A stretch of DNA of 64,000 nucleotides from Candidatus Marinacidobacterales bacterium (GTDB taxonomy: Bacteria; Acidobacteriota; Vicinamibacteria; Marinacidobacterales; DATDRI01), in the NCBI GenBank assembly GCA_965219415.1, contig CBDCNP010000002.1, positions 2,944,001 through 3,008,000 on the forward strand. Reading direction: 5' to 3'. The position numbers and the translations under genes are program-made. Below the pieces are notes generated by a model. The model was not told the DNA's origin. It ran no database searches and worked only from the letters and a program-made list of their open reading frames with translations. Every line of letters starts with the position of its first letter. Position 1 is the stretch's first letter. Positions 7,922-62,157 of the stretch are shown piece after piece.

Positions 7922-9345
7922 TCAATGCGACTGGAGCATCGCCTCCAGCTCGCGGCCGAGGGTGGCTTCGCGAGCCGCCTCCTCGGGTCGTCCGAGACGA
8001 CTGTATGCATCGGCGAGGAGGAAGTGGCCGAGAGCCGAAAAGTCGGAGCGAGGTGAAAGACTCAGACCCTTCTTGGCGAGTGATATCGTCTGCTGGACAT
8101 CGCCGGAGTCGAGAGCGGCCTTGGCCAACAAGAGATACCCTTCGCCAAAATCCGGGCTCGCATCGACTGCCTCCCGATAATGAAAAGTGGCATCGTCGCG
8201 CTGCCCCAAGTTATCCAGGAGTTGGCCCAACTGAAAGTGCGTGAGGTGGCTCGCCGGATGGAGCTCGATCTCCCGGCGGTACTCCGCAAGGGCGCGCTGG
8301 AAGACACCCCGATCCTCCCAAATCTTTGCGAGATTGTGATGAGCTAGGGCGACGTCTTTCTCGGTGCCCAACGCCGCTTCGAAGGCCTGCTGTGCCTCCT
8401 CGAGATCACCGCGCTCGTAAGCTATGACCCCCAGGCCGACCTGCGCCGTCGCCAGCTCGGGACCAAATTCAAGCGCCCTTTCGAAAGCCGCGGCCGCTTG
8501 GTCCAGGTTTTCGAGGTCTAGATTTAACTGCCCCACGAGAAAATGGACACCGGCGTCCTTGGGATTCGTTCCGAGGTAAGCCATGTACGCAGCCAGCGCT
8601 TCCTCGCTCCGGCCGAGCGCGAAATACGCGTTGGCGAGCTCTATCACTGCCACGTCGTAGTCTGGTTTCAGTTTCAGCGCCTGCCTGAAGTCCTCTACTG
8701 CTCGTTCCGGTTGTTCTTGTCGCAAGTGTGCTCGTCCGAGCGTTGTCCAAGCGTCGATCACCGTCGGGTCCTCTTCGATGATCTGGTGGAGCAGTGCTAT
8801 CGCCGCCTCGGCATCGGGTGGATCCGCAGAGAGCCTTTCCCTCGCGTCGGAGAGCTTATTGAATAGATGAATTCTCTCCTTGGGATCCGCCAAGTCCTCC
8901 AGGTCGTTCTTCGGTTCGGCAAACGTGCCGATGTATCCCAGCGACGCCAATCGTGCCCTCGTATCGGCGTCTATTTCCTGGTGAACGGCCGAATCGGCGT
9001 CCGGCCGTTCCATCGACTCTTCGATGTCGGCGAGGCGGTCGCCCATCTCGGTCAGGAGCGAAAGCCGGGCAGCGGCTAGATTGTCTAGCTCCAGAGGATC
9101 CTGGCTAAGATCGTAGAGCTCGGGTCGAGGCGCTTCGATGTATTTCAGAGATCCCATCCGCAACGCCCGAAGCTCGCTCCAGCCGAAGTGATACCGCGGG
9201 TAAAAAGATTCCGCGTAGCCCTCCCGGTTTCCCTCCTCCTCCCCGGCCCCCGCCATAAGCCCGGCTAAGCTCGTCCCGAACGAACTGCCGTTTAGCCCGT
9301 CCGGGACTTGGATCCCCAAAAGGTCGAGGACGGTTGGAAATATGT
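7922..9345 (-). pseudogene. Sulfatase C-terminal region + TPR repeats, 5' part removed at an IS end
   Basis: IFPTVLDLLG..YAESFYPRYHFGWSELRALR..KYIEAPRPELYDL followed by multiple TPRs. The ORF-track N-terminus is read from IS DNA starting at 9346. Confidence 0.8.
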
Positions 9346-10631
9346 TGTCCATCATCATTATTAATCCGGGACTGGACTCTAGGGCCCAGACCGCCCTCGA
9401 GCACATGCTGGAGAGCGTGGTCAGCGCGCGAGGGAAGGTGCTGAGGACAAACTTCTCGGCGACCAGCCGAGTAACGCGAGCGACCAAGCTGACTCAAGCT
9501 GCCTCTCGCCACTCGTATCGATGGTGCAGTCCACCGACTCGCGGCAGTGCGGCTACTTTCGCCGTAGGAGACGGTCGGTGCGTGACCGTTCTCAAGCTCG
9601 GTGTGTCCTTGTTCAGCCCCAAGTGGCAACGGTCCTCATGATAGTAGCTGATGTAAGCTCGCACGAGCCGGATGAGATGACATGCGCCGAGAACCACGAC
9701 GTGCTCAAGGAGCTCGCGACGGCAGCTGCCGACCCACCGCTCCGCGGTTCCGTTTTGCCATGGGCTGCGAAGCGAAGTGCGAACGGGTTTTGTGCCCGTT
9801 GCCTTGATGAACTCGATGACCGCAGCGTTAAAGATGAAGTCGCGATCGAAGATGAGATATCTCGGAGCGGTGTCGTAGGGAAACGCCTCGCGGAGTTGCT
9901 GAATAACCCAAGCAGACGTCGGGTGGAACGTGGCGTTGAAGTGAACGATGTGCCGGCGACCGTGCTCGATGACGAAGAAGCCGTACAGCAGCCGGAGCGA
10001 CGCGGTGGGCACGGTGAACAGATCCATGGCGGCGATATCGTCTTTATGGTTGCGCAAGAAAGCCATCCATCGTTTCAGCTGGTCGGGCTCCGCGGGACGC
10101 CGCGGCAGGTATCGCGACACCGTGCTCTCGGAGATGATGAAACCGAGCTTGGTGAGCTCAGCATGGATGCGTGGCGCCCCCCAGCCGTCTTGCGCCATCG
10201 TGCGGACGAGGCGGCGAATCTCGGCATCAATCCGAGGCCGACCGGGATGGCGGCGCTGCGAGATCTTTGCCCAGTACCGTCGGAATCGGTCGCGATGCCA
10301 ACGGGCTACGGTGTCCGCGTGGACGATGAGCAGGCGGCTCGCCCACACGGGCCACGAACCTCGAAGGGCAACCCAGAAAGCCCGTTCCGTGTCGTCGAGC
10401 GGTGGGCGTGGGCGCTCTTTCTTCAGCGCCGTCACTTGCTGCCGCAAAGCGACGTTCTCCAACACCAGGTCGGCGCGGCGCCGACACATCGCCCGAATGG
10501 CACGGACGCCAAGTGAGACGAGGAAGACAACAACGTTGAGCATAGCGGCGGAGTTTCGCCGTCTTCGGCCCGGAATTCAAGCGGAGCGTAAGTCCTTGAT
10601 TTCGTGGGCGGAGCAGTTTTGACGATGCACA
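9346..10631 (-). mobile_element. Integrase-core (IS481/IS3-like DDE) insertion element A, copy 1; transposase 9494-10543
   Basis: 349 aa rve transposase (WGAPRIHAEL, DLFTV, IFDRD, NGTAERWV, GGLHHRYE). Imperfect TGT..ACA ends (tgtccatcatc / tgtgcatcgtc) and an IHF-like site aatcaaggactta. Near-identical to 22310-23595. Confidence 0.9.
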
Positions 10632-12725: not shown

Positions 12726-12982
12726 ATTTGTCGTAAGTACTCGCCGTGCCCCCGTCCTGTGCCAAAACTCGGCCCTTTTGAAATAGGCCATAAATCAGCA
12801 ACTTAGTGTCTGTGTTTGCGACCGAGCCAAGGGCCGTGAGCTTTACAATCGTCTTGGGCGGGCGGGTCGTCACCATGCAGATGATCACCTAGTCGAGAGC
12901 GAATATCGAAGCGTGTGCCTGAAGCTGTTTCCACGCTACGCCGGTCGAGCGCACCGAGGGGCTACCGTCGCCAGCAAACCAT

Positions 12983-15955: not shown

Positions 15956-17311
15956 ATGAGTCACCTGAGCAACCAGTTGCACGAGGACGCCAGAAGGCGG
16001 TTCGAAGAGCTCGGACGGAGTCTACTCGGCCGTGTTGCTACATTCCGAGATCCCCCTTCTCGGGCACGCCCTGCTTTCTCGCCAAATGTCTTCACCGGGC
16101 CACAGCTTACGGACGCAGACATCGACGGCGATGTGCATCTTGGCTGGCGGGACCGCCAAGGGAAGCCAACAGGCATCGCCGTCGCCGAGGCGGGAGGCTT
16201 GCGCACTGGTCTGATCGGACCCGATTACGAGAAGCTGGAGGCCCTCGCGTTGTCGATGGCCAGGGTCCGGCCGTTCAAGTCAACAGCGAGCGTCGAGTTC
16301 ATGCGCACGCAGCTCTTCGAATGGGTGAAAGAGCGCCACCGTGGAGAGGGTTCCGCGGGGTGCGTGGACTACCTCTTGCGGGCGTGGGAGAGCGGGGCGG
16401 CGGAACATCGACTGCTCGTTCCGGTGTCCGACCTTCACGTGCAGTCCCCACTGACGCTCGGCTCGGTTACGGTGTCGACGTTTCCGGAGAGCATCTTCGA
16501 GGAGCTTGAATCCAAGCAGACTCACGGCCCGTCTGCCGAAGCGCATGCTGAGTGGTGTCGGTCGATGCGCAGAGACTTCCAGGGTATCACCGTTGCGGAG
16601 ACGCGCGTTTTCGCAGAACCGATTCGAGCGCAAGAAATCGCCAGTGACCGAGTCGAGTTGGCGGTCGGTGTGCTTCGCTTCTTCACGCCCCCTGGGGTTA
16701 CATCAAGGGTTGCTCGCTGGGGTTACGCACCTCGGCGGATCGACCGGGTCTTCATTACCGACCCTACGGGGAAGTTCTTGAGCACCTCCGAGGCGATCAT
16801 TGACCACCCAGGGACCATGGAACTTAGCGACGACCTGCGTGACATTTTGCTCGATGTCGGCCTCTCGGAAGTTCGCGATATCCTCGCGCGTTCCTCACGA
16901 ACCGACTTCGAGGAGACACTTCTGTTGGGTATGGTCACGTTCGGTCGGGCGGCACTCACGCCAGATCTCAGAGAGAAGATGATCTGGTACTGCGCCGGGT
17001 TGGAGTCGATTCTGCTTCGAGACAGTTCGGAGCCGATTCTTCACAACTTGAGCGAACGATTAGCGATGTTTGCCTATGACACGGTGGAGGAGCGGACGGT
17101 TGCCTTGAAGGAGGTTAAGGCGGCCTATTCACTTCGGTCACGGTTCGTTCATCACGGCGCTGAGATCGAAGAGGGTGAGGTTGTGACCCGATTCGCTCAT
17201 CACGGCCTTCAGGTTTTTCTCCGAATCGCTAAGAATGTCCACCATTTCAGCGGCAAGGTGGAGTTTGTCGAACATATTGACCGCATGAAACTCTCGGGTG
17301 CCTCGCAGTGA
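15956..17311 (+). CDS. Apea-like HEPN domain protein (candidate anti-phage RNase)
   Basis: C-terminal GLESILL..LSERLA..YSLRSRFVHHG (RxxxxH HEPN motif). Confidence 0.7.
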   Translation: MSHLSNQLHEDARRRFEELGRSLLGRVATFRDPPSRARPAFSPNVFTGPQLTDADIDGDVHLGWRDRQGKPTGIAVAEAGGLRTGLIGPDYEKLEALALSMARVRPFKSTASVEFMRTQLFEWVKERHRGEGSAGCVDYLLRAWESGAAEHRLLVPVSDLHVQSPLTLGSVTVSTFPESIFEELESKQTHGPSAEAHAEWCRSMRRDFQGITVAETRVFAEPIRAQEIASDRVELAVGVLRFFTPPGVTSRVARWGYAPRRIDRVFITDPTGKFLSTSEAIIDHPGTMELSDDLRDILLDVGLSEVRDILARSSRTDFEETLLLGMVTFGRAALTPDLREKMIWYCAGLESILLRDSSEPILHNLSERLAMFAYDTVEERTVALKEVKAAYSLRSRFVHHGAEIEEGEVVTRFAHHGLQVFLRIAKNVHHFSGKVEFVEHIDRMKLSGASQ

Positions 17312-17570
17312 CTGCTTTCGCTTGCCAGTTGCCGATTTGGCTTCCGTCGGTTCACTCAGTGCCTCAGTCAGCTAGTTCGCTCTCCGTCTATCCCCGTCCT
17401 GTGCCAAAACTCGGCCCAGCCGGCATCGACGAAAGAACTGCGCCTCTCGAAATCAGGCTAAAACTCTAAGCACGCGAACAGGTTACGCGGCGGCCGCCAA
17501 CACTTGACTGCGGAAGCACCCATCGGTGCATCGGTTGCGTGTCCTTCATCGGTGCTTCCGCCATCAAGTG

Positions 17571-19015
17571 ATGGAATGGACTCCTCCACTGACATAGACG
17601 GCATCGATGTGCCAAAGTCAGTCGAATACGCATCGAAAAGGAGGAGTCCAAATGAAAGATACGACAATCGCTGTGGATCTTGCAAAGAACGTCTTCGAGA
17701 TTGCCATCTCGGGAGAAGCGGGGAAGGTGTCCAAGCAACTCCGTGTGAGTCGACCCAAATTGGTGTCGTTCTTTGCCAAACAGAGCGCTGCCACCGTGCT
17801 TCTCGAAGCCTGCGGCTCGGCTCACTTCTGGGCAAGGACGTTCCGAAGGTTGGGACACGACGTCGTCCTGCTCCCACCTCACCTCGTGAGGCCGTATCGA
17901 CGCGGGAGCAAGAACGACCGCGCCGACACGAAGGCGTTGCTCGAGGCCTACAGGAACGAGGAGCTTCTTCCCGTACCCATCAAGTCCGTGCACCAGCACA
18001 CCCTCGCTGCGCTCCATCGCCTGCGCTCAGGATGGCTCTCCACACGGACCGCACGCATCAATGCCGTACGCGGGCTCCTGCGCGAACTCGGATTCATCAT
18101 CCCAAAGGGCGCTCACTTCGTCGTGCCCGCCCTCTTCGAACTCGTCGAAGACGCTGATTCTGATTTGCCCGACGTGCTCCGTTCGCATCTCCGTGATGCC
18201 TGCTCCGAGATTCGAGAACTCAAGGACAAGTGCGCTAGCATCGAGCACGAGCTCAAGGCGCTCACCAAGCAGCTTCCTGAAGTCCAACGACTTCTCGCCA
18301 TTCCCGGCATCGGACTTCTGGCCGCGACCGCCATCGTGGGCTTCGTCGGCGATCTTCGCCGCTTCCCATCGGGGCGCCGCTTCTCGAGCTACCTCGGCCT
18401 AGTTCCCAAGGAAAACTCCAGTGGCGACATTCGCCGCCTCGGACGCATCACCAAGCGTGGCGACTCCTACCTCCGTATGCTCCTCACCCAGGGCGGGCGC
18501 GCCGTGCTCCGCGCGGCGAACGTCAGCAAGAGCCCGCCCGACAAGCTCCGCGCCTGGGCTCGGAAGGTCCACCGCTCGCGGGGACACAACAAGGCCGTGA
18601 TTGCTGTCGCCAACAAACTCGCCCGGATCGTCTGGGCCGTCTCCACCCGCGAGAGTGAATTCCAGTCGCCGGTGGCCGCTTAGATTTAGAGGCTCCACTT
18701 TCGTGTTTTCCTTTTTCCCTTCCAAAAGAGGCTGCGACGATACCCATCCAACTGATGGCGTACCGGTCGGACCGGCGCGGGGTCAAGCCAATAGCAACAC
18801 TGGCCCTAAGAGGTCGTTCAAAGTGATTGGCTCCTCGCGCGCGGATTTTCCATCATGGCCCGGAGCACCCAAGACGCTCCTCACTGAGGCCGAAGATACG
18901 TTTGCAGTCTGACCCACTCGTCACGACGCGATGGATGCGCAGCTTCGATGGAAGATTTATTAAGAAAGGGGCGTGACTAGAAAGAAAGGGGCTTGACTAG
19001 AGGAGTCCAGATATG
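17571..19015 (+). mobile_element. IS110 family (IS1111 group) element, copy 1; recombinase 17652-18683
   Basis: DEDD motifs AVDLAK, LLEAC, KNDRAD and GLVPKENSSG; subterminal IRs GGACTCCTC / GAGGAGTCC; long 3' non-coding region; TG core at both junctions. Confidence 0.92.
18730..18915 (+). ncRNA. Predicted bridge/seek RNA of IS110 copy 1 (boundaries approximate)
   Basis: Stem GCCAAT..ATTGGC encloses target-matching TAGCAACAC and (TCA)AAGTG. A second loop holds donor-matching TTCCATCAT and AGATACG. Confidence 0.75.
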
Positions 19016-19353
19016 TTGCTACGCCGTATTTTGAATGCTAATGTCAGCTGGCCTGCCTGTGTCGGCGAACGCCATTAATAAGGATGTCGGCGTGCACACG
19101 AAGGTGTCCCTGAACGTCAGGCACCGTGTGGCCAGCCCAGCCCCGCATCGCCGAAAGAACTGCGTCTCCCGAAATCAGGCTCAAACTCTAGCACACGAGC
19201 GGGTTACGCGGCAGCCACCAACACTTGATTGCGGAAGCACCACCGATTCGAGGGGCGCGCGATCTGGCTGCCGAAGACTGAGGCCGAGCGACCCAATCGA
19301 GAGTTTCTTGAATGGCACGGCGACAGTGTCTTTCGAGGGTGAGGGAACATGCC

Positions 19354-20067
19354 ATGACTTGGATTGCTGGCGTCGATGGCTGCAAGGCAGGCTGGGTCGT
19401 CGTCCGGCTCGAGCTGGATTCTCGTAGCATAGCGATTGACGTCGTGGACGGGATCTCCGTGGTTCTCGACTCGGAGAACCCGCCCGAGATTCTGTGTATC
19501 GATGTTCCGATCGGACTTCTGGACGAGGCGGTTCGTGGGGGGCGAGAGTGCGACAAAGCGGCGAGAAAACTTCTTGGAAGCCCTCGTTCGAGTAGCGTCT
19601 TTTCGGCTCCAGCACGCCCGGCTCTCAAGGGCCGAAGCTTCGAGGAAGCGCTTCGTCTGAATCGCGAATCGTCCGCGCACGCCGTGGGTATCAGTCAACA
19701 GTGCTTCGGTATCATTCCTAAGATTCGGGAAGTCGACGACTACATGACTCCTGAACTGCAGGGGCGGGTTGTTGAGGTCCATCCCGAGCTGGTCTTTTAC
19801 GAAATGAGTGGTGGCAAATCGGTCAAAGAGGGCAAGAAGTCCAAAGGGGGCCTTGCACATCGGCTGGAGTTGTTGGCAGAGGCTTTCGACTTCAACGCGT
19901 CGGAGCTAGTGGAGAATCACCGGAGCTCGAAAGTGGCTCGGGACGATATCGTGGACGCAATGGCCGCGTGTTGGACCGCGGAGCGCATTTTGAAAGGGGA
20001 AGAGGTCCGCGTGCCCAACGAGCCCGTTCTGGATTCGAAAGGGTTGCTGATGGAAATCGTGCGCTAG
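19354..20067 (+). CDS. DUF429 predicted RNase H-fold nuclease
   Basis: AGVDGCKAGW, IDVPIGL, R.CD..AR..LG..RSSSVF, EVHPEL and DDIVDA motifs. Confidence 0.85.
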   Translation: MTWIAGVDGCKAGWVVVRLELDSRSIAIDVVDGISVVLDSENPPEILCIDVPIGLLDEAVRGGRECDKAARKLLGSPRSSSVFSAPARPALKGRSFEEALRLNRESSAHAVGISQQCFGIIPKIREVDDYMTPELQGRVVEVHPELVFYEMSGGKSVKEGKKSKGGLAHRLELLAEAFDFNASELVENHRSSKVARDDIVDAMAACWTAERILKGEEVRVPNEPVLDSKGLLMEIVR

Positions 20068-22309: not shown

Positions 22310-23595
22310 TGTGCATCGTCAAAACTGCTCCGCCCACGAAATCAAGGACTTACGCTCCGCTTGAATTCCGGGCCGAAGACGGCGAAACTCCGCCGCTATG
22401 CTCAACGTTGTTGTCTTCCTCGTCTCACTTGGCGTCCGTGCCATTCGGGCGATGTGTCGGCGCCGCGCCGACCTGGTGTTGGAGAACGTCGCTTTGCGGC
22501 AGCAAGTGACGGCGCTGAAGAAAGAGCGCCCACGCCCACCGCTCGACGACACGGAACGGGCTTTCTGGGTTGCCCTTCGAGGTTCGTGGCCCGTGTGGGC
22601 GAGCCGCCTGCTCATCGTCCACGCGGACACCGTAGCCCGTTGGCATCGCGACCGATTCCGACGGTACTGGGCAAAGATCTCGCAGCGCCGCCATCCCGGT
22701 CGGCCTCGGATTGATGCCGAGATTCGTCGCCTCGTCCGCACGATGGCGCAAGACGGCTGGGGGGCGCCACGCATCCATGCTGAGCTCACCAAGCTCGGTT
22801 TCATCATCTCCGAGAGCACGGTGTCGCGATACCTGCCGCGGCGTCCCGCGGAGCCCGACCAGCTGAAACGATGGATGGCTTTCTTGCGCAACCATAAAGA
22901 CGATATCGCCGCCATGGATCTGTTCACCGTGCCCACCGCGTCGCTCCGGCTGCTGTACGGCTTCTTCGTCATCGAGCACGGTCGCCGGCACATCGTTCAC
23001 TTCAACGCCACGTTCCACCCGACGTCTGCTTGGGTTATTCAGCAACTACGCGAGGCGTTTCCCTACGACACCGCTCCGAGATATCTCATCTTCGATCGCG
23101 ACTTCATCTTTAACGCTGCGGTCATCGAGTTCATCAAGGCAACGGGCACAAAACCCGTTCGCACTTCGTTTCGCAGCCCATGGCAAAACGGAACCGCGGA
23201 GCGATGGGTCGGCAGCTGCCGTCGCGAGCTCCTTGAGCACGTCGTGGTTCTCGGTGCATGTCATCTCATCCGGCTCGTGCGAGCTTACATCAGCTACTAT
23301 CATGAGGACCGTTGCCACTTGGGGCTGAACAAGGACACACCGAGCTTGAGAACGGTCACGCACCGACCGTCTCCTACGGCGAAAGTAGTCGCACTGCCGC
23401 GAGTCGGTGGACTGCACCATCGATACGAGTGGCGAGAGGCAGCCTGAGTCAGCTTGGTCGCTCGCGTTACTCGGCTGGTCGCCGAGAAGTTCGTCCTCAG
23501 CACCTTCCCTCGCGCGCTGACCACGCTCTCAAGCATGGGCTCGAGGGCGGTCCGGGCCCTAGAGTCCAGTCCCGGATTAATAATGATGATGGACA
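22310..23595 (+). mobile_element. Integrase-core element A, copy 2; transposase 22398-23447
   Basis: Near-identical inverted copy of 9346-10631. Confidence 0.9.
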
Positions 23596-23617
23596 AGTTG
23601 CGCCGTCAGTCGGGGGA

Positions 23618-25518: not shown

Positions 25519-25620
25519 CCCTGCGGCGCGAAATACCCTGGATTTTGCGCGGATTCCAAGGGCGTCTAAGCTGCTGATTTGTGGGCTATTTCAAAAGGGC
25601 CGAGTTTTGGCACAGGACGG

Positions 25621-26009
25621 GGTCGGCAGCTGCCGTCGCGAGCTCCTTGAGCACGTCGTGGTTCTCGGCGCATGTCATCTCATCCGGCTCGTGCGAGCTT
25701 ACATCAGCTACTATCACGAGGACCGTTGCCACTTGGGGCTGAACAAGGACACACCGAGCTTGAGAGCGGTCACGCACCGACCGTCTCCTACGGCGAAAGT
25801 AGTCGCACTGCCGCGAGTCGGTGGACTGCACCATCGATACGAGTGGCGAGAGGCAGCCTGAGTCAGCTTGGTCGCTCGCGTTACTCGGCTGGTCGCCGAG
25901 AAGTTCGTCCTCAGCACTTTCCCTCGCGCGCTGACCACGCTCTCCAGCATGTGCTCGAGGGCGGTCCGGGCCCTAGAGTCCAGTCCCGGACAAATAATGA
26001 TGATGGACA
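25621..26009 (+). mobile_element. 3' fragment and right end of integrase-core element A
   Basis: Matches 23207-23595. Confidence 0.85.
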
Positions 26010-32456: not shown

Positions 32457-32734
32457 TTAGCGTTGCGCGAGTTCCTGAACCGATGCTTCCGCTATCAAGT
32501 GTTGCTACGCCGTGTTTGAATGCTAGTGTCAGCTGGCCTGCCTGTGTCGGCGAACGCCACAGAATTAATCTCGCTGTCTTTTCAACGTGTTCGTGCTGAC
32601 AACAGAATGTATGAGGTTGTGGGTGCGCCGGGGCGTCGAACCCGGGAGGCCGGCAATTCTGCCGATCTTCTACACCTCCCCCGGCGCGCCCTCCGAAATG
32701 TTGCTTCTAAGAAAGGGTTGAAAGGGTTGAAACA

Positions 32735-47068: not shown

Positions 47069-47790
47069 TCACTGGGCTAGCCACGCGCTGAAACGCTCGT
47101 TCATCGTGTCCATGTGGTCGCTCCACCACAACCAGTTGCTCTGCAGGACGCGCACGGTATTCTCTGGGTGGGTTGGCATGTGGGGGGTCATGTCGACACC
47201 GGCCTCGACGTGCGTCCCGACCAGCGGCAGGCCCGACCGGCGCACAGGGCTGTAGGCAATGTGACCGCTGACGGCCGCCATCGACTCCGCAGTTGTGGCA
47301 AACCGGACGAACTCCAACGCAGTCTCGAGGTTCCGCGTGCCAGCGACGATGCCAAGCTGGCCTGTGTCCAGCACTTGGCCGTCCCAAACGATCACGAAAG
47401 GTTGGCTCTCGATCACCTGCGCATTGAAGATGCGGCCGTTGTAAGCGGTGCTCATGACCACTTCGCCGTCTGCGAGCATTTGCGGCGGCTGCGCACCGGC
47501 TTCCCACCACACCACCTGTTCTTTGATGGTGTCGAGCTTACGAAAGGCCCGGTCTACTCCAGCTGACGTGTCGAGCGTAGTGTACACCTCACTGACTGGC
47601 ACGCCGTCGGCGATCAGCGCGAACTCCAGATTGACGAGCGGTGTGCGGCGCATCCCGCGGCGACCCGGAAAGCGCTCCAGGTCGAAGAAGTCGTCGATTG
47701 TTGCCGGTTTGTCGCCCGGGATACGCTCGGCGTTGTAGGCATAGACGGTGGAATAGAACAGTGTACCCACACTGCAGTCCAGCAGCGTGT
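47069..47790 (-). pseudogene. Polyamine-type ABC transporter substrate-binding protein, 5'-truncated at the CRISPR array
   Basis: DFFDLERFPGRRG..LEFALIADGV..VVWWEAGAQPPQMLADGEV..YNGR..ERFSAWL. Confidence 0.8.
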
Positions 47791-47812
47791 CGGGTCCGTA
47801 TGAGGTCCACGA

Positions 47813-49773
47813 GTGTCGCCGGGGTTTACTCCCCGGCCTTCGTTGAGCGCTCGAATGAAGATGTCTCAGGCGATCCGATGAGCTAGTGTCGCCGGGGTTT
47901 ACTCCCCGGCCTTCGTTGAGCGCTGTGCGGAGGATGCGAAGAGGCGAAGATGCCCACGGTGTCGCCGGGGTTTACTCCCCGGCCTTCGTTGAGCGCTCCC
48001 TCGCTAGTGAAACCGCAGCTCCGGTCCAAAGCCGTGTCGCCGGGGTTTACTCCCCGGCCTTCGTTGAGCGTCGCGCACCTGCTCCGGGAGAATCCCTAGC
48101 TTCGTCGTGTCGCCGGGGTTTACTCCCCGGCCTTCGTTGAGCGGTGCTCCATCAACGGGGCCTCGTATGGGCAGAGGACGGTGTCGCCGGGGTTTACTCC
48201 CCGGCCTTCGTTGAGCGGTGCTGTCTCCCGCCGGGACGGTCGTGCTGTCCAAGGGTGTCGCCGGGGTTTACTCCCCGGCCTTCGTTGAGCGGACAACGCT
48301 GTCAGGTTCCTCAAGCCGTACAGCGCCGCGTGTCGCCGGGGTTTACTCCCCGGCCTTCGTTGAGCGAGTTACCGGATTGGACGAATCCATGGACGAGATA
48401 TCAAGTGTCGCCGGGGTTTACTCCCCGGCCTTCGTTGAGCGCTCTAACCGTCCGCATTTGATAGCTTGTTTCGTCCGCAAGTGTCGCCGGGGTTTACTCC
48501 CCGGCCTTCGTTGAGCGGCCGCCGCCGCGGTCATACTTTGATTGCTCCCGATAGTGTCGCCGGGGTTTACTCCCCGGCCTTCGTTGAGCGAAGGCTCTGA
48601 CCAAGGAAGATCGCCAGGAACTCGCGTGTCGCCGGGGTTTACTCCCCGGCCTTCGTTGAGCGGCCGCCGCCGCGGTCATACTTTGATTGCTCCCGATAGT
48701 GTCGCCGGGGTTTACTCCCCGGCCTTCGTTGAGCGAAGGCTCTGACCAAGGAAGATCGCCAGGAACTCGCGTGTCGCCGGGGTTTACTCCCCGGCCTTCG
48801 TTGAGCGGGCGTCACCGACGGCATGGCCAAAATGCCAGACTCCGGGTGTCGCCGGGGTTTACTCCCCGGCCTTCGTTGAGCGCTGGCGGTCGGCTACAGC
48901 GCCGCAGAGGCGGCGGCGGTGTCGCCGGGGTTTACTCCCCGGCCTTCGTTGAGCGAGCTAGAGCATGTTCGAGAAATCACCGAACAGCGCGTGTGTCGCC
49001 GGGGTTTACTCCCCGGCCTTCGTTGAGCGGACTTAACAACGGTGATAGACCCGGCCGCGGGCGAGGAGTGTCGCCGGGGTTTACTCCCCGGCCTTCGTTG
49101 AGCGTTCATCAAATTCGCCGGGACCGCGATGCACTCGATCGCGTGTCGCCGGGGTTTACTCCCCGGCCTTCGTTGAGCGAGTAAGTTTCGCCCCGCTTGG
49201 AAACGCTGAATTGAGTGTCGCCGGGGTTTACTCCCCGGCCTTCGTTGAGCGTTCGAGCACGGGTGATGCCTTGAAAGGATCATTCTTGTGTCGCCGGGGT
49301 TTACTCCCCGGCCTTCGTTGAGCGAAGGCCGAAACGATGTCCATCCTGACAGGGAAGAGCTTGTGTCGCCGGGGTTTACTCCCCGGCCTTCGTTGAGCGT
49401 GAGCCGTTACGTCCGCAACTTTGCCATGGCGGGATGGTGTCGCCGGGGTTTACTCCCCGGCCTTCGTTGAGCGGTCCCAGGGTTTGCTCACGGGCTATCC
49501 CTTCCTCGCCGGTGTCGCCGGGGTTTACTCCCCGGCCTTCGTTGAGCGCGCTGAAGTCCGTCGTGGTTACCGATACTTCAGAAGCCTGTGTCGCCGGGGT
49601 TTACTCCCCGGCCTTCGTTGAGCGGCCAACGCCCGCCAGATGCTTGCGATTCTTGTGAAGGTGTCGCCGGGGTTTACTCCCCGGCCTTCGTTGAGCGGGG
49701 AATATTGGCGCCTGATGCTCACCTGGAACGAAACGGGTGTCGCCGGGGTTTACTCCCCGGCCTTCGTTGAGCG
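47813..49773 (+). CRISPR. CRISPR array, 27 repeats / 26 spacers, type I-G (I-U)-like repeat, no cas genes in window
   Basis: Identical 37-bp repeat GTGTCGCCGGGGTTTACTCCCCGGCCTTCGTTGAGCG (hairpin CCGGGG/CCCCGG); spacers 35-39 bp. Confidence 0.97.
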
Positions 49774-49783
49774 CTGACGCGGG

Positions 49784-50983
49784 GGTGCTTCCGCAATTAA
49801 GTGTTGGCAGCCAGCCCCTAACCGGTCTGCGTGCTAGAGTTTGAACCAGAATTCCGAAGACACAGTTCTCTCATCGTCAGGGCCGAGCCAAAGTGAAAAA
49901 TCGCAGATGTCTCAATCTCGCATGTCCGTTGCGGGGCAAAGTCAGTTCCGGAAACATCGTTCGCCACGGATTCTACCGAACCAGGTCCGGGAAACGCCGT
50001 CGATACCGGTGCGGCGAGTGCGGAAAGACGTTCTCCTCGACGAAAGGCACGCCCTACTACCGTCTCCAACATCGAAGAGCTACTTTCGATGGGGTCATCG
50101 CTCTCAGAGTCGAGGGTGTCAGCATTTCCTCGATTTCCCGGATCAAAGGGATTGCCTGGAACACCGTCGCCCGTTGGCTCGAGAAGGCAGCCCAAGTGTG
50201 TCATCGATTCAATCACAGAAGGATCGCTGGCTTCGCTGCCGAAGAGCTTCAAGCCGACGAGATTCGCACGTTCGCGGGCAACAAGAAGACACCGAGTTGG
50301 GTCTTCGTTACAATCGAAGTCTGGTCTCGGCTCTGGCCATCGACGGTGACGGGAAGGCGAAGCTACCGGAACACTCACGCTCTGTTTCGCGACCTTTCGA
50401 GACGGATGAATTTCGAGCGTCTTCCCTTGATCGTTACGGATGGATTCGAATTCTACCAGAAGGTCATCCGTCGCTTCTTCGGGCCAGCGTGTCTCTACGG
50501 CCAGGTCCTAAAAACGCGCAGGAACGATCGCATCATCAAGGTCGAACGGAGAGTGCTGCACGGAGCCGCGTGGCGATTCGAAGACGCGCTCAATAACTCC
50601 GAGGACTCTTCGACATTGAACACGTCGTTCATCGAGCGGTTGAATCTGACCATCCGGCAAAGCTCGGCATACCTTTCGAGACGAACGCTTTCCCACGCTC
50701 GCTCGACGGAGAGGCTCGATGAACACCTGGAGTTGCTCCGTTGCTATTACAACTTCGTCCGACCGCACGGAGCTCTGAAGTTCGGACGTGAGATCCGAAC
50801 TCCGGCTATGCAGGCTGGTCTGACGACGCGACGGCTCACCTTTCGAGACATCTTCTTGGCGATGACGATTCCTTTGTGGTCGCGGATCGAGGTTTTCGTG
50901 CTCAGTAGGGCGCGCAACCCGCTCTCTTCCGCACCTGTACCACTGCCCGCAGCCGCGTAGCAACACTTGATGGCGGAAGCACC
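49784..50983 (+). mobile_element. IS1-family element, copy 1; transposase 49893-50960
   Basis: Zn finger (CLNLAC..YRCGECGKTF), HTH, QADE..TDG..IERLN; IRs GGTGCTTCCGC(A/C)AT(T/C)AAGTGTTG. Confidence 0.88.
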
Positions 50984-51176
50984 GGGCGGGAGGACGATAG
51001 ACCGCACGGAGCTTCGCCATGGTATTGATGACCATTACTACCTCCCTCTCGCTGCTGGATCGAACATATCATATCATTCATTGCTCCTTCCGCCGGAACC
51101 CCACGGCTTGCGGGTAGTGGTCTAGTTTGAATTTTCTGGCCGCTGAACGGTCCGCCGTCTCGTGCTATCCTGGGGT

Positions 51177-54500: not shown

Positions 54501-55700
54501 GGTGCTTCCGCCATCAAGTGTTGCTACGCGGCTGCGGGCAGTGGTACAGGTGCGGAAGAGACCGGGTTGCGCGCCCTACTGAGCACGAAAACCTCGATCC
54601 GCGACCACAAAGGAATCGTCGTCGCCAAGAAGATGTCTCGAAAGGTGAGCCGTCGCGTCGTCAGACCAGCCTGCATAGCCGGAGTTCGGATCTCACGTCC
54701 GAACTTCAGAGCTCCGTGCGGTCGGACGAAGTTGTAATAGCAACGGAGCAACTCCAGGTGCTCATCGAGCCTCTCCGTCGAGCGAGCGTGGGAAAGCGTT
54801 CGTCTCGAAAGGTATGCCGAGCTTTGCCGGATGGTCAGATTCAACCGCTCGATGAACGAGGTGTTCAATGTCGAAGAGTCCTCGGAGTTATTGAGCGCGT
54901 CTTCGAATCGCCACGCGGCTCCGTGCAGCGCTCTCCGTTCGACCTTGATGATGCGATCGTTCCTGCGCGTCTTGAGGACCTGGCCGTAGAGACACGCTGG
55001 ACCGAAGAAGCGACGGATGACCTTCTGGTAGAATTCGAATCCATCCGTGACGATCAAGGGAAGACGCTCGAAATTCATCCGTCTCGAAAGGTCGCGAAAC
55101 AGAGCGTGAGTGTTCCGGTAGCTTCGCCTTCCCGTCACCGTCGATGGCCAGAGCCGAGACCAGACTTCGATTGTAACGAAGACCCAATTCGGCGTCTTCT
55201 TGTTGCCCGCGAACGTGCGAATCTCGTCGGCTTGAAGCTCTTCGGCAGCGAAGCCAGCGATCCTTCTGTGATTGAATCGACGACACACTTGAGCTGCCTT
55301 CTCGAGCCAGCGGGCGACGGTGTTCCAGGCAATCCCTTCGACCCGGGAAATCGAGGAAATGCTGACACCCTCGACTCTGAGAGCGATGACCCCATCGAAA
55401 GTAGCTCTTCGATGTTGGAGACGGTAGTAGGGCGTGCCTTTCGTCGAGGAGAACGTCTTTCCGCACTCGCCGCACCGGTATCGACGGCGTTTTCCGGACC
55501 TGGTTCGGTAGAATCCGTGGCTAACGATGTTTCCGGAACTGACTTTGCCCCGCAACGGACATGCGAGATTGAGACATCTGCGATTCTTCACTTTGGCTCG
55601 GCCCTGACGATGAGAGAACTGTGTCTTCGGAATTCTGGTTCAAACTCTAGCACGCAGACCGGTTAGGGGCTGGCCGCCAACACTTAATTGCGGAAGCACC
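54501..55700 (-). mobile_element. IS1-family element, copy 2; transposase 54524-55591
   Basis: Inverted near-identical copy of 49784-50983. Confidence 0.88.
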
Positions 55701-60467: not shown

Positions 60468-62157
60468 GGTGCTTCCGCCATCAAGTGATGGAATGGACTC
60501 CTCCACTGACATAGACGGCATCGATGTGCCAAAGTCAGTCGAATACGCATCGAAAAGGAGGAGTCCGAATGAAAGATACAACGATCGCTGTGGATCTTGC
60601 AAAGAACGTCTTCGAGATTGCCATCTCGGGAGAAGCGGGGAAGGTGTCCAAGCGACTCCGTGTGAGTCGACCCAAATTGGTGTCGTTCTTTGCCAAACAG
60701 AGCGCTGCCACCGTGCTTCTCGAAGCCTGCGGCTCGGCTCACTTCTGGGCAAGGACGTTCCGAAGGTTGGGACACGACGTCGTCCTGCTCCCACCTCACC
60801 TCGTGAGGCCGTATCGACGCGGGAGCAAGAACGACCGCGCCGACACGAAGGCGTTGCTCGAGGCCTACAGGAACGAGGAGCTTCTTCCCGTACCCATCAA
60901 GTCCGTGCAGCAGCACACCCTCGCTGCGCTCCATCGCCTGCGCTCAGGATGGCTCTCCACACGGACCGCACGCATCAATGCCGTACGCGGGCTCCTGCGC
61001 GAACTCGGATTCATCATCCCAAAGGGCGCTCACTTCGTCGTGCCCGCCCTCTTCGAACTCGTCGAAGACGCTGATTCTGATTTGCCCGACGTGCTCCGTT
61101 CGCATCTCCGTGATGCCTGCTCCGAGATTCGAGAACTCAAGGACAAGTGCGCTAGCATCGAGCACGAGCTCAAGGCGCTCACCAAGCAGGCTTCCTGAAG
61201 TCCAACGACTTCTCGCCATTCCCGGCATCGGACTTCTGACCGCGACCGCCATCGTGGGCTTCGTCGGCGATCTTCGCCGCTTCCCATCGGGGCGCCGCTT
61301 CTCGAGCTACCTCGGCCTAGTTCCCAAGGAAAACTCCAGTGGCGACATTCGCCGCCTCGGACGCATCACCAAGCGTGGCGACTCCTACCTCCGTATGCTC
61401 CTCACCCAGGGCGGGCGCGCCGTGCTCCGCGCGGCGAACGTCAGCAAGAGCCCGCCCGACAAGCTCCGCGCCTGGGCTCGGAAGGTCCACCGCTCGCGGG
61501 GACACAACAAGGCCGTGATTGCTGTCGCCAACAAACTCGCCCGGATCGTCTGGGCCGTCTCCACCCGCGAGAGTGAATTCCAGTCGCCGGTGGCCGCTTA
61601 GACTTAGAGGCTCCACTTTCGTGTTTTCCTTTTTCCCTTCCAAAAGAGGCTGCGACGATACCCATCCAACTGATGGCGTACCGGTCGGACCGGCGCGGGG
61701 TCAAGCCAATAGCAACACTGGCCCTAAGAGGCCGTTCAAAGTGATTGGCTCCTCGCGCGCGGATTTTCCATCATGGCCCGGAGCACCCAAGACGCTCCTC
61801 ACTGAGGCCGAAGATACGTTTGCAGTCTGACCCACTCGTCACGACGCGATGGATGCGCAGCTTCGATGGAAGATTTATTAAGAAAGGGGCTTGACTAGAA
61901 AGAAAGGGGCTTGACTAGAGGAGTCCAGATATGTTGCTACGCCGTGTTTGAATGCTAGTGTCAGCTGGCCTTCCTGTGTCGGCGAACGCCACTAATAAGG
62001 ATGTCAGCGTGCACACGAAGGTATCTCTGAACGTCAGGCACCGTGTGTTCAGCCCAGCCCGTATCGCCGAAAGAACTGCGTCTCTCGAAATCAGGCTCAA
62101 ACTCTAGCACACGAGCGGGTTACGCGGCAGATACCAACACTTGATGGCGGAAGCACC
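60468..62157. mobile_element. Second IS1-derived MITE with an IS110 insertion at the identical site
   Basis: GGTGCTTCCGCCATCAAGTG | IS110 | TTGCTACGCC..GCGGAAGCACC. Confidence 0.8.
60488..61933 (+). mobile_element. IS110 copy 2; recombinase 60569-61601 frameshifted by one extra G near 61190
   Basis: Near-identical to copy 1; AAGCAGGCTT versus AAGCAGCTT. Confidence 0.9.

What the first reader, a model, noticed from the sequence alone, without database searches (positions are those of the whole stretch)
17551..19241. IS110 bridge RNA programmed against the terminal repeat of another transposon (IS1 family)
Seen: both IS110 copies (17571, 60488) sit at the same base, ..CCATCAAG[TG]TTGCTAC.., 20 bp inside the IS1-family right IR. 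Empty sites exist at ~32494, 50957-50972(rc) and 54511. The 3' non-coding region has a stem (GCCAAT/ATTGGC) enclosing TAGCAACAC (18792-18800, reverse complement of target GTGTTGCTA) and TCAAAGTG (~target TCAAGTG). A second loop has TTCCATCAT (18848-18856, reverse complement of the circle junction ATGATGGAA) and AGATACG (~donor AGATATG). By my hand count the host MITEs differ at ~16 of 225 bp but the IS110 copies at only ~10 of 1445 bp, implying independent insertions. Established: IS110/IS1111 use bridge/seek RNAs. Inference: an RNA-guided hyperparasite that uses a proliferating IS as a safe harbour and breaks its IR. The guide predicts the right end (TTGCTA) is hit but not the left (TTGGCA).
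Basis: partly seen in the sequence, partly recalled or inferred. Interest (0 to 1): 0.8.

Follow-up and report, generated by a model that had tools for sequence, protein, structure and literature searches.

The report
RNA-guided IS that targets another IS
A small mobile element of the IS110/IS1111 kind carries a guide RNA matching one end of a second, very abundant mobile element, and it has inserted at that exact base about thirty times in this genome; this is a clear new example of a behaviour already known from IS4321/IS5075.

Summary
The element is 1,445 bp (window 17571-19015) and has the IS1111 layout: a 343-aa DEDD transposase, 10-bp subterminal inverted repeats and a 333-bp 3' non-coding region.

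The 8-Mb genome holds 33 left junctions, all 20 bp inside a terminal repeat of an IS1-like IS/MITE family with 481 ends. Of 30 copies with both ends, 29 sit in the TTGCTA-type end and 1 in the TTGG-type end. With identical left halves, occupancy is 29/106 against 1/63 (p=5e-6).

Host MITEs differ by 9.5% on average and the resident elements by 0.15%, so the insertions were independent and recent.

The 3' region folds into two internal loops. Their strands match the target (10 nt, and 7 nt with one bulge) and the circle junction (9 nt, and 6 of 7). Across 12 distinct relatives the 5' target strand covaries with each element's own right flank, and 11 stem pairs show compensatory changes.

RNA guidance is inferred, not shown. 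The idea is not new: IS4321/IS5075 target Tn21-family terminal repeats, and one paper calls this a "safe harbor". Verdict: a new member of a known kind.

The parts
17551..17570 (+). Outer 20 bp of the host MITE's terminal repeat (TTGCTA-type end, the IRR side), split off by the insertion.
   Evidence: The same 20-mer, within 3 mismatches, precedes all 33 left junctions in the genome.
17571..19015 (+). IS110-family element of IS1111 layout, copy 1, 1,445 bp. The boundary is ambiguous by the shared TG, so it could equally be 17569-19013.
   Evidence: The genome holds 33 copies at 99.3-100% identity.
17577..17586 (+). Left subterminal inverted repeat, TGGACTCCTC.
   Evidence: Read; it is the reverse complement of 19000-19009.
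17577..17650 (+). Leader hairpin. The left subterminal repeat pairs with GGAGGAGTCC just before the start codon and buries the AGGAGG ribosome-binding site.
   Evidence: -32.9 kcal/mol, z = -4.65, 0 of 200 shuffles as stable. The same arrangement, with matching changes, is visible in relatives.
17652..18683 (+). Transposase gene, 343 aa (DEDD/RuvC-like N-terminal domain plus Transposase_20 C-terminal domain; contains GLVPKENSSG).
   Evidence: PF01548 at 45.9 bits and PF02371 at 85.5 bits. NF033542, 'IS110 family RNA-guided transposase', 302.9 bits against a cut-off of 140. IS621 and ISCro4 transposases at E about 1e-8.
18739..18911 (+). Predicted bridge/seek RNA region inside the 333-bp 3' non-coding region (18684-19015).
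   Evidence: Alignment of 15 homologous regions. Structure counts: 92.6% of cells paired against 32-41% when partners are slid, 11 pairs with changes on both sides, 0 of 500 shuffles as high.
18792..18801 (+). Target loop, 5' strand (TAGCAACACT). It is complementary to the top strand AGTGTTGCTA, which is 2 nt of the left flank, the TG and the right flank TTGCTA.
   Evidence: Covariation with each element's own right flank in relatives.
18817..18825 (+). Target loop, 3' strand (TTCAAAGTG). It has the same sense as the left flank TCAAG+TG with one extra A, so it would pair with the bottom strand.
   Evidence: The covariation is weaker.
18848..18856 (+). Donor loop, 5' strand (TTCCATCAT). It is the reverse complement of A+TG+ATGGAA, the expected right-end/left-end circle junction.
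   Evidence: The strand changes together with the left end in L077, L082 and L083.
18894..18900 (+). Donor loop, 3' strand (AGATACG). The right end reads AGATA+TG, so 6 of 7 match. The 93% variant in related genomes has AGATATG here.
19000..19009 (+). Right subterminal inverted repeat, GAGGAGTCCA.
   Evidence: Read.
19016..19241 (+). Remainder of host MITE copy 1, starting TTGCTACGCC.
60468..60487 (+). Outer 20 bp of host MITE copy 2.
60488..61933 (+). IS110-family element, copy 2, 1,446 bp. One extra G near 61189/61190 shifts the transposase frame, leaving a 209-aa ORF.
61934..62157 (+). Remainder of host MITE copy 2.
54501..55700 (-). Full-length host IS (1,200 bp) with an unoccupied target at 54511-54527. 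Its 355-aa IS1-like transposase is at 54524-55591 (-). The CTA of TTGCTA is that gene's TAG stop codon.
   Evidence: (NF033558 transpos_IS1, 83 bits, below the cut-off of 100).
49784..50984 (+). Second full-length host IS, inverted relative to the first, with an unoccupied target at 50957-50973.
   Evidence: (inverted pair I2, 98% complementary).
32492..32508 (+). Unoccupied target in another host copy, with 1 mismatch.

Best explanation
This is an active IS110-family insertion sequence of the IS1111 type. Its 3' non-coding region encodes a bridge/seek RNA with two internal loops.

The first loop would pair with the two strands of the target, CATCAAG-TG-TTGCTA. The second would pair with the junction formed when the element's two ends are joined in a circle.

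The target sequence lies 20 bp inside the terminal repeat at the 3' side of an IS1-like IS and its MITEs. That family supplies about 95% of the matching sites in this genome, so the element accumulates there, always in one orientation.

Shown here: the element's anatomy, the identical insertion point, the bias between the two host ends, the independence of the insertions, and the covariation of guide with flank and of the RNA stems.

Inferred from homology with ISEc11, ISPa11, ISKpn4 and IS621: that the RNA is made, binds the transposase and directs recombination through a circular intermediate.
For: 1. Family. Pfam PF01548 and PF02371. NCBIfam 'IS110 family RNA-guided transposase' at 302.9 bits against a cut-off of 140. 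IS621 and ISCro4 transposases in the PDB at E about 1e-8.

2. Layout. A 10-bp subterminal repeat, 81 bp upstream and 333 bp downstream of a 343-aa gene, and the motif GLVPKENSSG. These fit the IS1111 description in PMC11187229 (section 6).

3. Insertion point. All 33 of 33 left junctions follow the same 20-mer, and the sequence further upstream differs in nearly all of them; one pair shares it (C3:3049816 and C3:4171993, a likely segmental duplication). Of 30 right junctions, 29 read TTGCTA and 1 reads TTGG.

4. End bias. Among ends with an identical left half, 29 of 106 TTGCTA ends are occupied against 1 of 63 TTGG ends (Fisher p = 5e-6).

5. Independence. The hosts fall into at least three structural classes. 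Ten host MITEs differ by 9.5% on average while their inserts differ by 0.15%.

6. Activity. 29 of 30 copies keep an intact ORF, and 27 of 30 have an identical RNA region.

7. Guide matches. Target: 10 nt on the 5' strand, and 7 nt with one bulge on the 3' strand. Circle junction: 9 nt, and 6 of 7. The strand complementary to the top strand lies 5' of the one complementary to the bottom strand, as reported for IS1111-type seekRNAs.

8. Covariation. Across 12 distinct relatives at 48-98% protein identity, the longest exact run between the 5' target strand and the element's own right flank averages 7.25 nt, against 3.76 nt for 126 non-cognate pairs (p = 8e-7). For the 3' strand the figures are 3.83 and 3.00 (p = 0.03).

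9. Natural re-targeting. L017, 90.6% identical in DNA, has a different target loop, and 10 nt of it match its own, different right flank.

10. Off-repeat insertions. The 93% variant sits outside the host repeat in 6 loci. The four right junctions I read by eye (L015, L019, L020, L023) keep the TTGCT half of the AAG-TG-TTGCT core, and the six left flanks end in AGTG, three of them in CAAGTG.

11. RNA stems. 92.6% of cells are paired against 32-41% in slid controls, and 11 of 28 pairs have changes on both sides.
Against: - There is no direct evidence that the RNA exists. No Rfam family matched. Only assembled contigs of public runs could be laid, and these cannot show an RNA's ends or level.
- No promoter-like site was found inside the element with an E. 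coli-type consensus.
- The single-sequence fold of the RNA region is not unusually stable (z = -1.26).
- The 3' target strand needs a 1-nt bulge, and its covariation is weak.
- The donor 3' strand has a C where the right end has T. Some relatives show uncompensated mismatches between donor loop and left end (L072, L075, L080, L081).
- One relative (L087) sits at a site that fits another element's guide better than its own.
- The relatives are related to each other, so the p-values overstate independence.
- Pure sequence targeting cannot be separated from a need for the repeat context in this genome. Only 4 unoccupied matches to the 11-mer lie outside host repeats.
Confidence: 0.87

Rival explanations
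1. The copies spread by riding along with the host: the host IS or MITE carrying the insert transposed as one composite unit, so there was only one or a few true insertions into the repeat.
For: The outer 20 bp of the host repeat stay at the tip of the composite, so a host transposase might still recognise it (reading). Two loci share the same left flank (C3:3049816 and C3:4171993).
Against: The hosts belong to at least three structural classes: MITEs of about 245 bp, 1.2-kb elements with deletion derivatives, and a form of about 1.5 kb. One insertion is in the opposite type of end. Ten host MITEs differ by 2.7-17.9% (mean 9.5%) while their inserts differ by 0-0.6%, and the two distances are uncorrelated (Spearman rho 0.006). 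The shared-flank pair looks like a segmental duplication.
Confidence: 0.04
2. Target choice is made by the transposase protein, or by a DNA structure of the repeat, and the complementarity in the 3' region is incidental or serves something else.
For: RNA expression and binding were not shown here. In copy 1 the target lies at the foot of a long hairpin formed by two adjacent host ends; Rfam's chance miRNA-like hit at 17501-17570 reflects this.
Against: Copy 2 and most other copies lack that hairpin context. The loop strands change together with the flanks across relatives whose transposases are 48-98% identical. Insertions outside the repeat in relatives share only the guide-matched core. Guide function has been shown experimentally for the same family (PMC11187229, sections 9 and 10; PMC11208160, passages).
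Confidence: 0.07
3. The repeated picture is an assembly artefact: a collapsed or mis-joined repeat in a metagenome-assembled genome.
For: The genome is reported as 96% complete with 8.45% contamination and is extremely repeat-rich.
Against: There are 33 junctions, nearly all with distinct unique flanks, in 3 large contigs. The same element and the same junctions occur in four other independently assembled related genomes. Contigs of two public runs, X1 and X2, cover every bin of the stretch, and one X1 contig (17499-17842) crosses the left junction.
Confidence: 0.02

Closest known systems
[quoted passage not shown]
   Same: An IS1111-type element that inserts at one fixed position and orientation inside the terminal repeat of another transposon. 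It makes occasional insertions elsewhere where a chromosomal sequence resembles the repeat (ureC). PMC8269217 (passages seen) describes this as a safe harbor. Here the parallels are 44 of 51 left junctions inside the repeat in relatives and 7 outside.
   Different: Here the host is an IS1-like insertion sequence and its MITEs in an uncultured acidobacterium, not a Tn3-family transposon on plasmids. It is present at about 480 ends per genome. The target covers the host transposase's stop codon. The right terminal extension is 5 bp plus the dinucleotide, rather than the 3 bp described for that group (PMC11187229, introduction). I could not read the 2003 paper itself.
ISEc11 / ISXne4, ISPa11, ISKpn4, ISPst6 and ISPa25 (IS1111-type elements with a demonstrated seekRNA)
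   Same: The non-coding region lies downstream. The RNA has a segment complementary to the top strand 5' of a segment complementary to the bottom strand, and the two overlap at the insertion point. Close relatives are naturally re-targeted by replacement of the loop strands (PMC11187229, sections 9 and 10). Here L017 compared with the window element is such a pair.
   Different: No experiment has been done here. The target is different. Protein identity to those elements was not measured.
IS621 bridge RNA (IS110 group)
   Same: Two internal loops, one for the target and one for the donor. Each has two strands that read opposite DNA strands and overlap at a dinucleotide (PMC11208160, passage). 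The transposase C-terminal domain is related.
   Different: In IS621 the RNA lies in the left end and the strand order is reversed, the subterminal repeats are 2-3 bp, and the core is CT. Here the RNA is in the right end, the subterminal repeats are 10 bp, and the dinucleotide is TG (YG in relatives).
IS1111-attC group (IS1111-family elements that insert in integron attC sites; Post and Hall 2009, cited, not read)
   Same: The relatives at about 58-62% protein identity (L072, L075, L080) sit in a palindromic repeat of roughly 85 nt that ends in GTTGTTAGG. This repeat recurs on one strand within single contigs, seven times over about 5.5 kb in G294:C78, as in a cassette array.
   Different: The window element has been re-targeted from such sites to an IS terminal repeat. 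I did not test the attC identity of the relatives' target beyond its shape and spacing.

Membership tests
IS110 family, IS1111 group | DEDD (RuvC-like) transposase with the IS110-type C-terminal domain | tested here: met
   PF01548 at 45.9 bits (cut-off 29) and PF02371 at 85.5 bits (cut-off 21.3). NF033542 at 302.9 bits (cut-off 140).
IS110 family, IS1111 group | Subterminal inverted repeats of about 7-17 bp (PMC11208160, section 12; PMC11187229) | tested here: met
   TGGACTCCTC (17577-17586) against GAGGAGTCCA (19000-19009), 10 of 10.
IS110 family, IS1111 group | The long non-coding region lies downstream of the transposase gene | tested here: met
   333 bp downstream (18684-19015) against 81 bp upstream (17571-17651).
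IS110 family, IS1111 group | Transposase of 330-350 aa with a GL-P----S(t)G motif (PMC11187229, section 6) | tested here: met
   343 aa, with GLVPKENSSG in the translation.
IS110 family, IS1111 group | Terminal extensions of 7 (or 6) bp on the left and 3 bp on the right beyond the subterminal repeats (PMC11187229, introduction) | tested here: not met
   With the repeat taken as GGACTCCTCC/GGAGGAGTCC, the left extension is ATGGAAT (7 bp) but the right is AGATA (5 bp) plus the TG. This describes the elements studied in that paper; I do not take it as excluding membership.
Bridge RNA / seekRNA | [quoted passage not shown] | tested here: met
   18792-18801 and 18817-18825. The order matches. Covariation.
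Bridge RNA / seekRNA | Second loop matching the joined ends (the donor) | tested here: met
   18848-18856 matches the junction over 9 nt and 18894-18900 matches 6 of 7. Partial covariation with the left end in L077, L082 and L083; uncompensated mismatches in L072, L075, L080 and L081.
Bridge RNA / seekRNA | Conserved secondary structure supported by compensatory changes | tested here: met
   11 of 28 pairs have changes on both sides, 92.6% of cells are paired, and slid controls give 32-41%.
Bridge RNA / seekRNA | The RNA is expressed, binds the transposase and is needed for transposition | not testable with these tools
   Only assembled contigs of public runs were available. No Rfam model matched.
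IS1 family (the host element) | IS1-type transposase | tested here: inconclusive
   NF033558 at 83 bits (E = 2.6e-23) but below the cut-off of 100. PF03400 at 22.4 bits, below 24.1. The nearest Atlas cluster is 'IS1 transposase domain-containing protein', score 0.99.
IS1 family (the host element) | Target-site duplication of about 8-9 bp (recalled from ISfinder, not from a call) | tested here: not met
   115 of 130 paired elements had no exact terminal flank repeat of 2 nt or more.
IS1 family (the host element) | Terminal inverted repeats of about 20-25 bp | tested here: met
   The two ends of 54501-55700 match at 22 of 24 positions and then diverge.

The most novel reading that the evidence does not exclude
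The natural junctions of this IS1111 lineage may record how strands are exchanged.

In relatives with known empty sites, the target dinucleotide is CG. The integrated copy nevertheless has TG on its left and CG on its right, in 3 of 3 copies.

Across the family, the left dinucleotide travels with the element and changes together with the 5' donor strand (TG becomes GG in L082). The right dinucleotide belongs to the target. Both target strands and the 3' donor strand usually end in CG, while the 5' donor strand reads TG.

This is what top-strand-only transfer, or a heteroduplex circle junction, would leave behind. A 2025 preprint on a different IS110 element proposed such a mechanism.

In addition, a conserved upstream UGAUGG pairs with the 5' donor strand (3 of 6 pairs have compensatory changes). 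It could mask the donor guide until the RNA is bound.
Probability: 0.3. Interest if true: 0.65.

Novelty: new member of a known kind. Interest (0 to 1): 0.45.

Why it matters
The locus gives a large natural data set for how an IS1111-type guide RNA discriminates between targets.

- One genome holds about 480 near-identical candidate sites. They differ at a few positions and are occupied at very different rates: 27% for TTGCTA ends and 1.6% for TTGG ends.
- The 93% variant in related genomes shares the window element's target loop, and it shows off-target insertions and self-insertions there.
- One naturally re-targeted variant is available for comparison.
- More distant relatives appear to target integron-type sites.

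It also extends the habit of one mobile element living inside the end of another. That habit was known from clinical plasmids and Tn21-family transposons. Here it appears with an IS1-like element and its MITEs in an uncultured marine acidobacterium.

For people engineering bridge recombinases, the element is a compact orthologue (343 aa, RNA region about 170 nt) with a well-defined natural specificity profile.

The basic concept and mechanism are already published, so this is not a surprise to specialists.

Tried and rejected
- Rfam scan of 17000-19800 at E up to 1: only chance miRNA/snoRNA-like hits, and no curated bridge-RNA family matched.
- Megablast of the finding against plasmids: no match.
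- tblastn of the transposase against the window's own genome: all 33 hits exceed 97% identity, so no diverged paralogue with another guide was found there.
- Public runs. All four runs laid (X1, X2, X15, X16) are assembled contigs.
  - No joint from the right end back to the left end (a circle junction) was listed.
  - Contigs of RNA-library run X15 cover parts of the transposase gene (17970-18256, 18339-18665). This does not show transcription.
  - One X16 contig reads through an uninterrupted host repeat.
  - None of this is used as evidence.
- Promoter and terminator scan of 17500-19100: no sigma-70-like promoter, and two terminator-like sites at chance level.
- Single-sequence fold of the RNA region: z = -1.26, not significant on its own.
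- Other copies of the re-targeted variant in its genome: L017 is single-copy there.
- An uninterrupted homologue of L017's target in the window's genome: none found.
- Host target-site duplications: none found with an exact, terminal test.
- A junction promoter. TTGACT near the right end, 17-18 bp before the left end, gives at best TGGAAT as a -10 hexamer. This was read by eye only and does not meet the scan tool's criteria, so it stays a conjecture.
- The 'full-type host' divergence figure (mean 32%) is inflated by deletion derivatives in the 380-bp window. I do not use it.
- In one search the representative kept for the L076-L078 group (L076) had a wrongly detected left end. This lowers its cognate 3'-strand score.
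- L073, L083, L085, L086 and L088 were dropped from the test, and L086 from the alignment too, because an end or a flank was missing or not detected.
- The supplements of the papers were closed. They may hold target logos and RNA folds relevant to the comparison.
- PMC219399 (Partridge and Hall 2003) is not held. I know it only from titles in reference lists and from what PMC8269217 says about it.
Full report
WHAT IS THERE

The interval 17551-19241 is a 246-bp MITE interrupted by a 1,445-bp insertion sequence. The MITE pieces are 17551-17570 and 19016-19241, and the insert is 17571-19015.

The insert encodes one 343-aa protein at 17652-18683. It has the two Pfam domains of IS110-family transposases. 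It scores 302.9 bits against NCBIfam's 'IS110 family RNA-guided transposase', whose cut-off is 140. Its C-terminal half matches the solved IS621 and ISCro4 transposases at E about 1e-8.

The element has these features:
- 10-bp subterminal inverted repeats (17577-17586 and 19000-19009);
- 81 bp of non-coding DNA upstream and 333 bp downstream of the gene;
- the motif GLVPKENSSG.

This is the IS1111 layout as described in PMC11187229 (section 6) and PMC11208160 (section 12).

A second copy is at 60488-61933, in another MITE copy (60468-60487 plus 61934-62157). It carries one extra G that breaks the reading frame.

CHECKING THE OBSERVATION

Both copies lie between ..CCATCAAGTG and TTGCTAC... Uninterrupted sites are at 32492, 50957 (minus strand) and 54511, where shuffles give none. 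Every motif and coordinate given for the 3' region is correct. The two host copies differ at 14 of 224 positions, and the two inserts at 9 of 1,445 plus one indel.

THE WHOLE GENOME

The window lies in an 8.05-Mb assembly of three contigs. BLAST finds 33 left ends of the element (32 on contig C3, 1 on C2) at 99.3-100% identity.

- All 33 follow the same 20-mer, GGTGCTTCCGCCATCAAGTG, within 3 mismatches. The sequence further upstream differs in nearly all of them; one pair shares it.
- 30 also have a right end. Of these, 29 are followed by TTGCTA and one (C3:5105436) by TTGGCG, which is the other type of host end. Three copies are truncated.
- 29 of 30 keep an intact 343-aa frame, and 27 of 30 have an RNA region identical to copy 1.

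The host family is very large, with 481 ends within 3 mismatches of the 20-mer:
- 33 occupied;
- 87 empty TTGCTA-type;
- 322 empty TTGG-type;
- 39 other.

It includes about 28 elements of 1,200 bp and many MITEs.

WHICH END IS HIT

The two host ends share 22 of their first 24 bp and then diverge, and the insertion falls after position 20. Among ends whose left half is exactly ATCAAGTG, 29 of 106 TTGCTA ends are occupied against 1 of 63 TTGG ends (Fisher p = 5e-6). Over all ends the figures are 29/116 against 1/323 (p = 2e-17).

The host's 355-aa transposase gene (54524-55591, minus strand) ends with the TAG whose complement is the CTA of TTGCTA. The hit end is therefore the one downstream of the host gene. 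The insertion lies 3 nt past the stop codon and does not break the gene.

INDEPENDENT INSERTIONS

The occupied hosts are of at least three structural kinds. Ten occupied MITEs differ from each other by 2.7-17.9% (mean 9.5%). Their inserts differ by 0-0.6% (mean 0.15%), and the two distances are uncorrelated. The inserts therefore arrived after the hosts had diverged, in a recent burst, and not by co-transposition.

THE RNA

The region 18739-18911 aligns with the homologous regions of 14 relatives. The consensus fold has:
- an outer stem;
- a basal stem, GCCAAT/ATTGGC;
- an internal loop;
- a short inner hairpin;
- a second internal loop, closed by an invariant GGCC/GGCC stem.

On this structure 92.6% of cells pair, against 32-41% when partners are slid by 1-3 columns. 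Eleven of 28 pairs show changes on both sides, against 2-5 in the slid controls. None of 500 shuffles reaches any of the five measures.

In the first loop, the 5' strand (18792-18801) is complementary to AGTGTTGCTA on the target's top strand. The 3' strand (TTCAAAGTG) repeats TCAAGTG with one extra A. In the second loop, TTCCATCAT is the reverse complement of A-TG-ATGGAA, the junction expected when the ends are joined. AGATACG repeats the right end AGATA-TG with one mismatch.

The order, with the top-strand match 5' of the bottom-strand match, is the one reported for IS1111-type seekRNAs (PMC11187229, section 9). It is the reverse of IS621 (PMC11208160, passage).

RELATIVES AS A NATURAL EXPERIMENT

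The same element occurs in four other Candidatus Marinacidobacterales genomes, at 98% protein identity and as a variant of about 93%. Of 51 left junctions in those loci, 44 lie in the same host repeat and 7 do not.

Six of the seven belong to the 93% variant, which has the same target loop. The four right junctions I read by eye (L015, L019, L020, L023) keep the TTGCT half of the AAG-TG-TTGCT core, and the six left flanks end in AGTG, three of them in CAAGTG.

The seventh, L017, is 90.6% identical in DNA and single-copy in its genome. It has a different target loop, and 10 nt of it match its own right flank. This parallels the natural re-direction of ISXne4 relative to ISEc11 (PMC11187229, section 10).

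A sample of 400 further genomes of the phylum gave relatives at 33-62% protein identity in 31 of them.

For 12 elements with distinct guides and detectable ends, I measured the longest exact run between the reverse complement of the 5' target strand and a right flank. It averages 7.25 nt for an element's own flank and 3.76 nt for 126 non-cognate pairs (p = 8e-7). For the 3' strand against the left flank the figures are 3.83 and 3.00 nt (p = 0.03). The elements are related to each other, so these p-values are generous.

L087 is an exception. Its guide fits L079's flank, not its own.

HOW IT MOST LIKELY WORKS

By homology with the tested IS1111 and IS110 elements, the likely sequence is as follows.
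1. The transposase binds the RNA.
2. The donor loop holds the joined ends.
3. The target loop holds CATCAAG-TG-TTGCTA.
4. Recombination occurs at the dinucleotide.

In this genome 82 of 87 unoccupied copies of the 11-mer CAAGTGTTGCT lie in host repeats; one of the other five is a host repeat with an indel, so 4 lie elsewhere, and about 2.6 are expected by chance. The 'specialisation' on the host may therefore be nothing more than sequence matching to the commonest site.

Nothing here shows that the RNA is made.

COMPARISON WITH WHAT IS KNOWN

IS4321 and IS5075 are IS1111-family members that insert in the terminal repeats of Tn21-family transposons. The Partridge and Hall 2003 title is cited.

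PMC8269217 (passages) says this specificity 'represents a safe harbor'. It also documents an off-target insertion in ureC caused by sequence similarity.

What is new is the host (an IS1-like element and its MITEs), the lineage, and the size of the natural data set.

I searched the held library for IS110-family elements inserted into the repeats of other insertion sequences and for IS5075/IS4321. I found no report of an IS1-type host. That is only as wide as those two searches.

THE HOST'S FAMILY

The 355-aa protein matches NCBIfam transpos_IS1 at E = 2.6e-23, but at 83 bits it is below the cut-off of 100. It matches Pfam DDE_Tnp_IS1 below threshold as well. The nearest Atlas cluster is an IS1 transposase cluster. 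115 of 130 paired elements had no exact terminal flank repeat of 2 nt or more. I call it IS1-like, not a proven IS1-family member.

SIDE OBSERVATION ON THE DINUCLEOTIDE

In L072, L075 and L080 the element sits in a palindromic repeat that recurs on one strand at intervals of roughly 0.5-1.2 kb, as in an integron cassette array.

- The empty sites read ..AGC-CG-GTTGTTAGG..
- The occupied sites read ..AGC-TG-[element]-CG-GTTGTTAGG...

Across the family the left dinucleotide follows the 5' donor strand (GG in L082). The right one follows the target. The two target strands and the 3' donor strand usually end in CG.

This fits transfer of top-strand information only. The abstract of bioRxiv 10.1101/2025.10.25.684509 (abstract only) proposes that for another IS110 element. 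I did not test it further.

Noticed in passing
L072, L075, L080 (occupied sites); L113, L114, L115, L118 (empty sites): Relatives at about 58-62% protein identity sit in a palindromic repeat ending GTTGTTAGG. In G294 contig C78 this repeat recurs seven times on one strand over about 5.5 kb, like integron attC sites. Empty sites have CG at the crossover, while occupied ones have TG on the left and CG on the right.
   Followed up: partly
window 18753-18758 with 18851-18856: An upstream UGAUGG can pair with the 5' strand of the donor loop (CCAUCA). The helix is kept in 92% of cells across 15 relatives, and 3 of its 6 pairs have changes on both sides. It may mask the donor guide, or both segments may simply track the left end.
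   Followed up: partly
window 17577-17650: The left subterminal repeat pairs with a third copy of the repeat (GGAGGAGTCC) that contains the ribosome-binding site just before the transposase start codon (-32.9 kcal/mol, z = -4.65). Distant relatives with a different repeat (GGTCCGCC/GGCGGACC) keep the same arrangement.
   Followed up: partly
L001, L009, L010, L014, L015, L016, L026; G000:C3:3315124-3316873: Tandem extra copies of the 3' (RNA-encoding) part follow a full element. In several related loci (L001, and by eye L009, L010 and L026) the right end is joined to an internal site of the element that resembles the target, for example GTGA|TTGCTGTC in the transposase gene; the junction in the window's own genome (G000:C3) did not obviously resemble the target. 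This looks like self-insertion at pseudo-targets followed by deletion.
   Followed up: no
window 47786-49773: A CRISPR array of 27 copies of a 37-nt repeat, spaced 72-76 bp. One repeat-spacer pair is duplicated. A full-length host IS abuts it directly at 49784.
   Followed up: no
window 11904-63071 (12 copies), e.g. 12751-12812: Another repeat family starts CCCGTCCTGTGCCAAAACTCGGCCC. Several host IS1-like elements carrying the IS110 insert lie at one position inside it (..GAAATAGACC|GGTGCTTCC), so the host element may itself have a preferred target in a third repeat.
   Followed up: no
window 17501-17570: Two host ends lying tail to head 30 bp apart form a long hairpin. Rfam scored it as a chance miRNA-like hit at 33 bits against a cut-off of 90. 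It is not a feature of the target as such, since copy 2 lacks it.
   Followed up: yes
window 9345-10631 with 22310-23596; 23206-23505 with 25620-25919: Further large repeats, including a 1,287-nt inverted pair at 99%, suggest other IS families in this very repeat-rich window.
   Followed up: no
L087 and L079: The target-loop 5' strand of L087 matches the right flank of L079 over 10 nt but matches its own flank over only 4 nt. Either that copy is at a non-cognate site or its right end came from another element.
   Followed up: no
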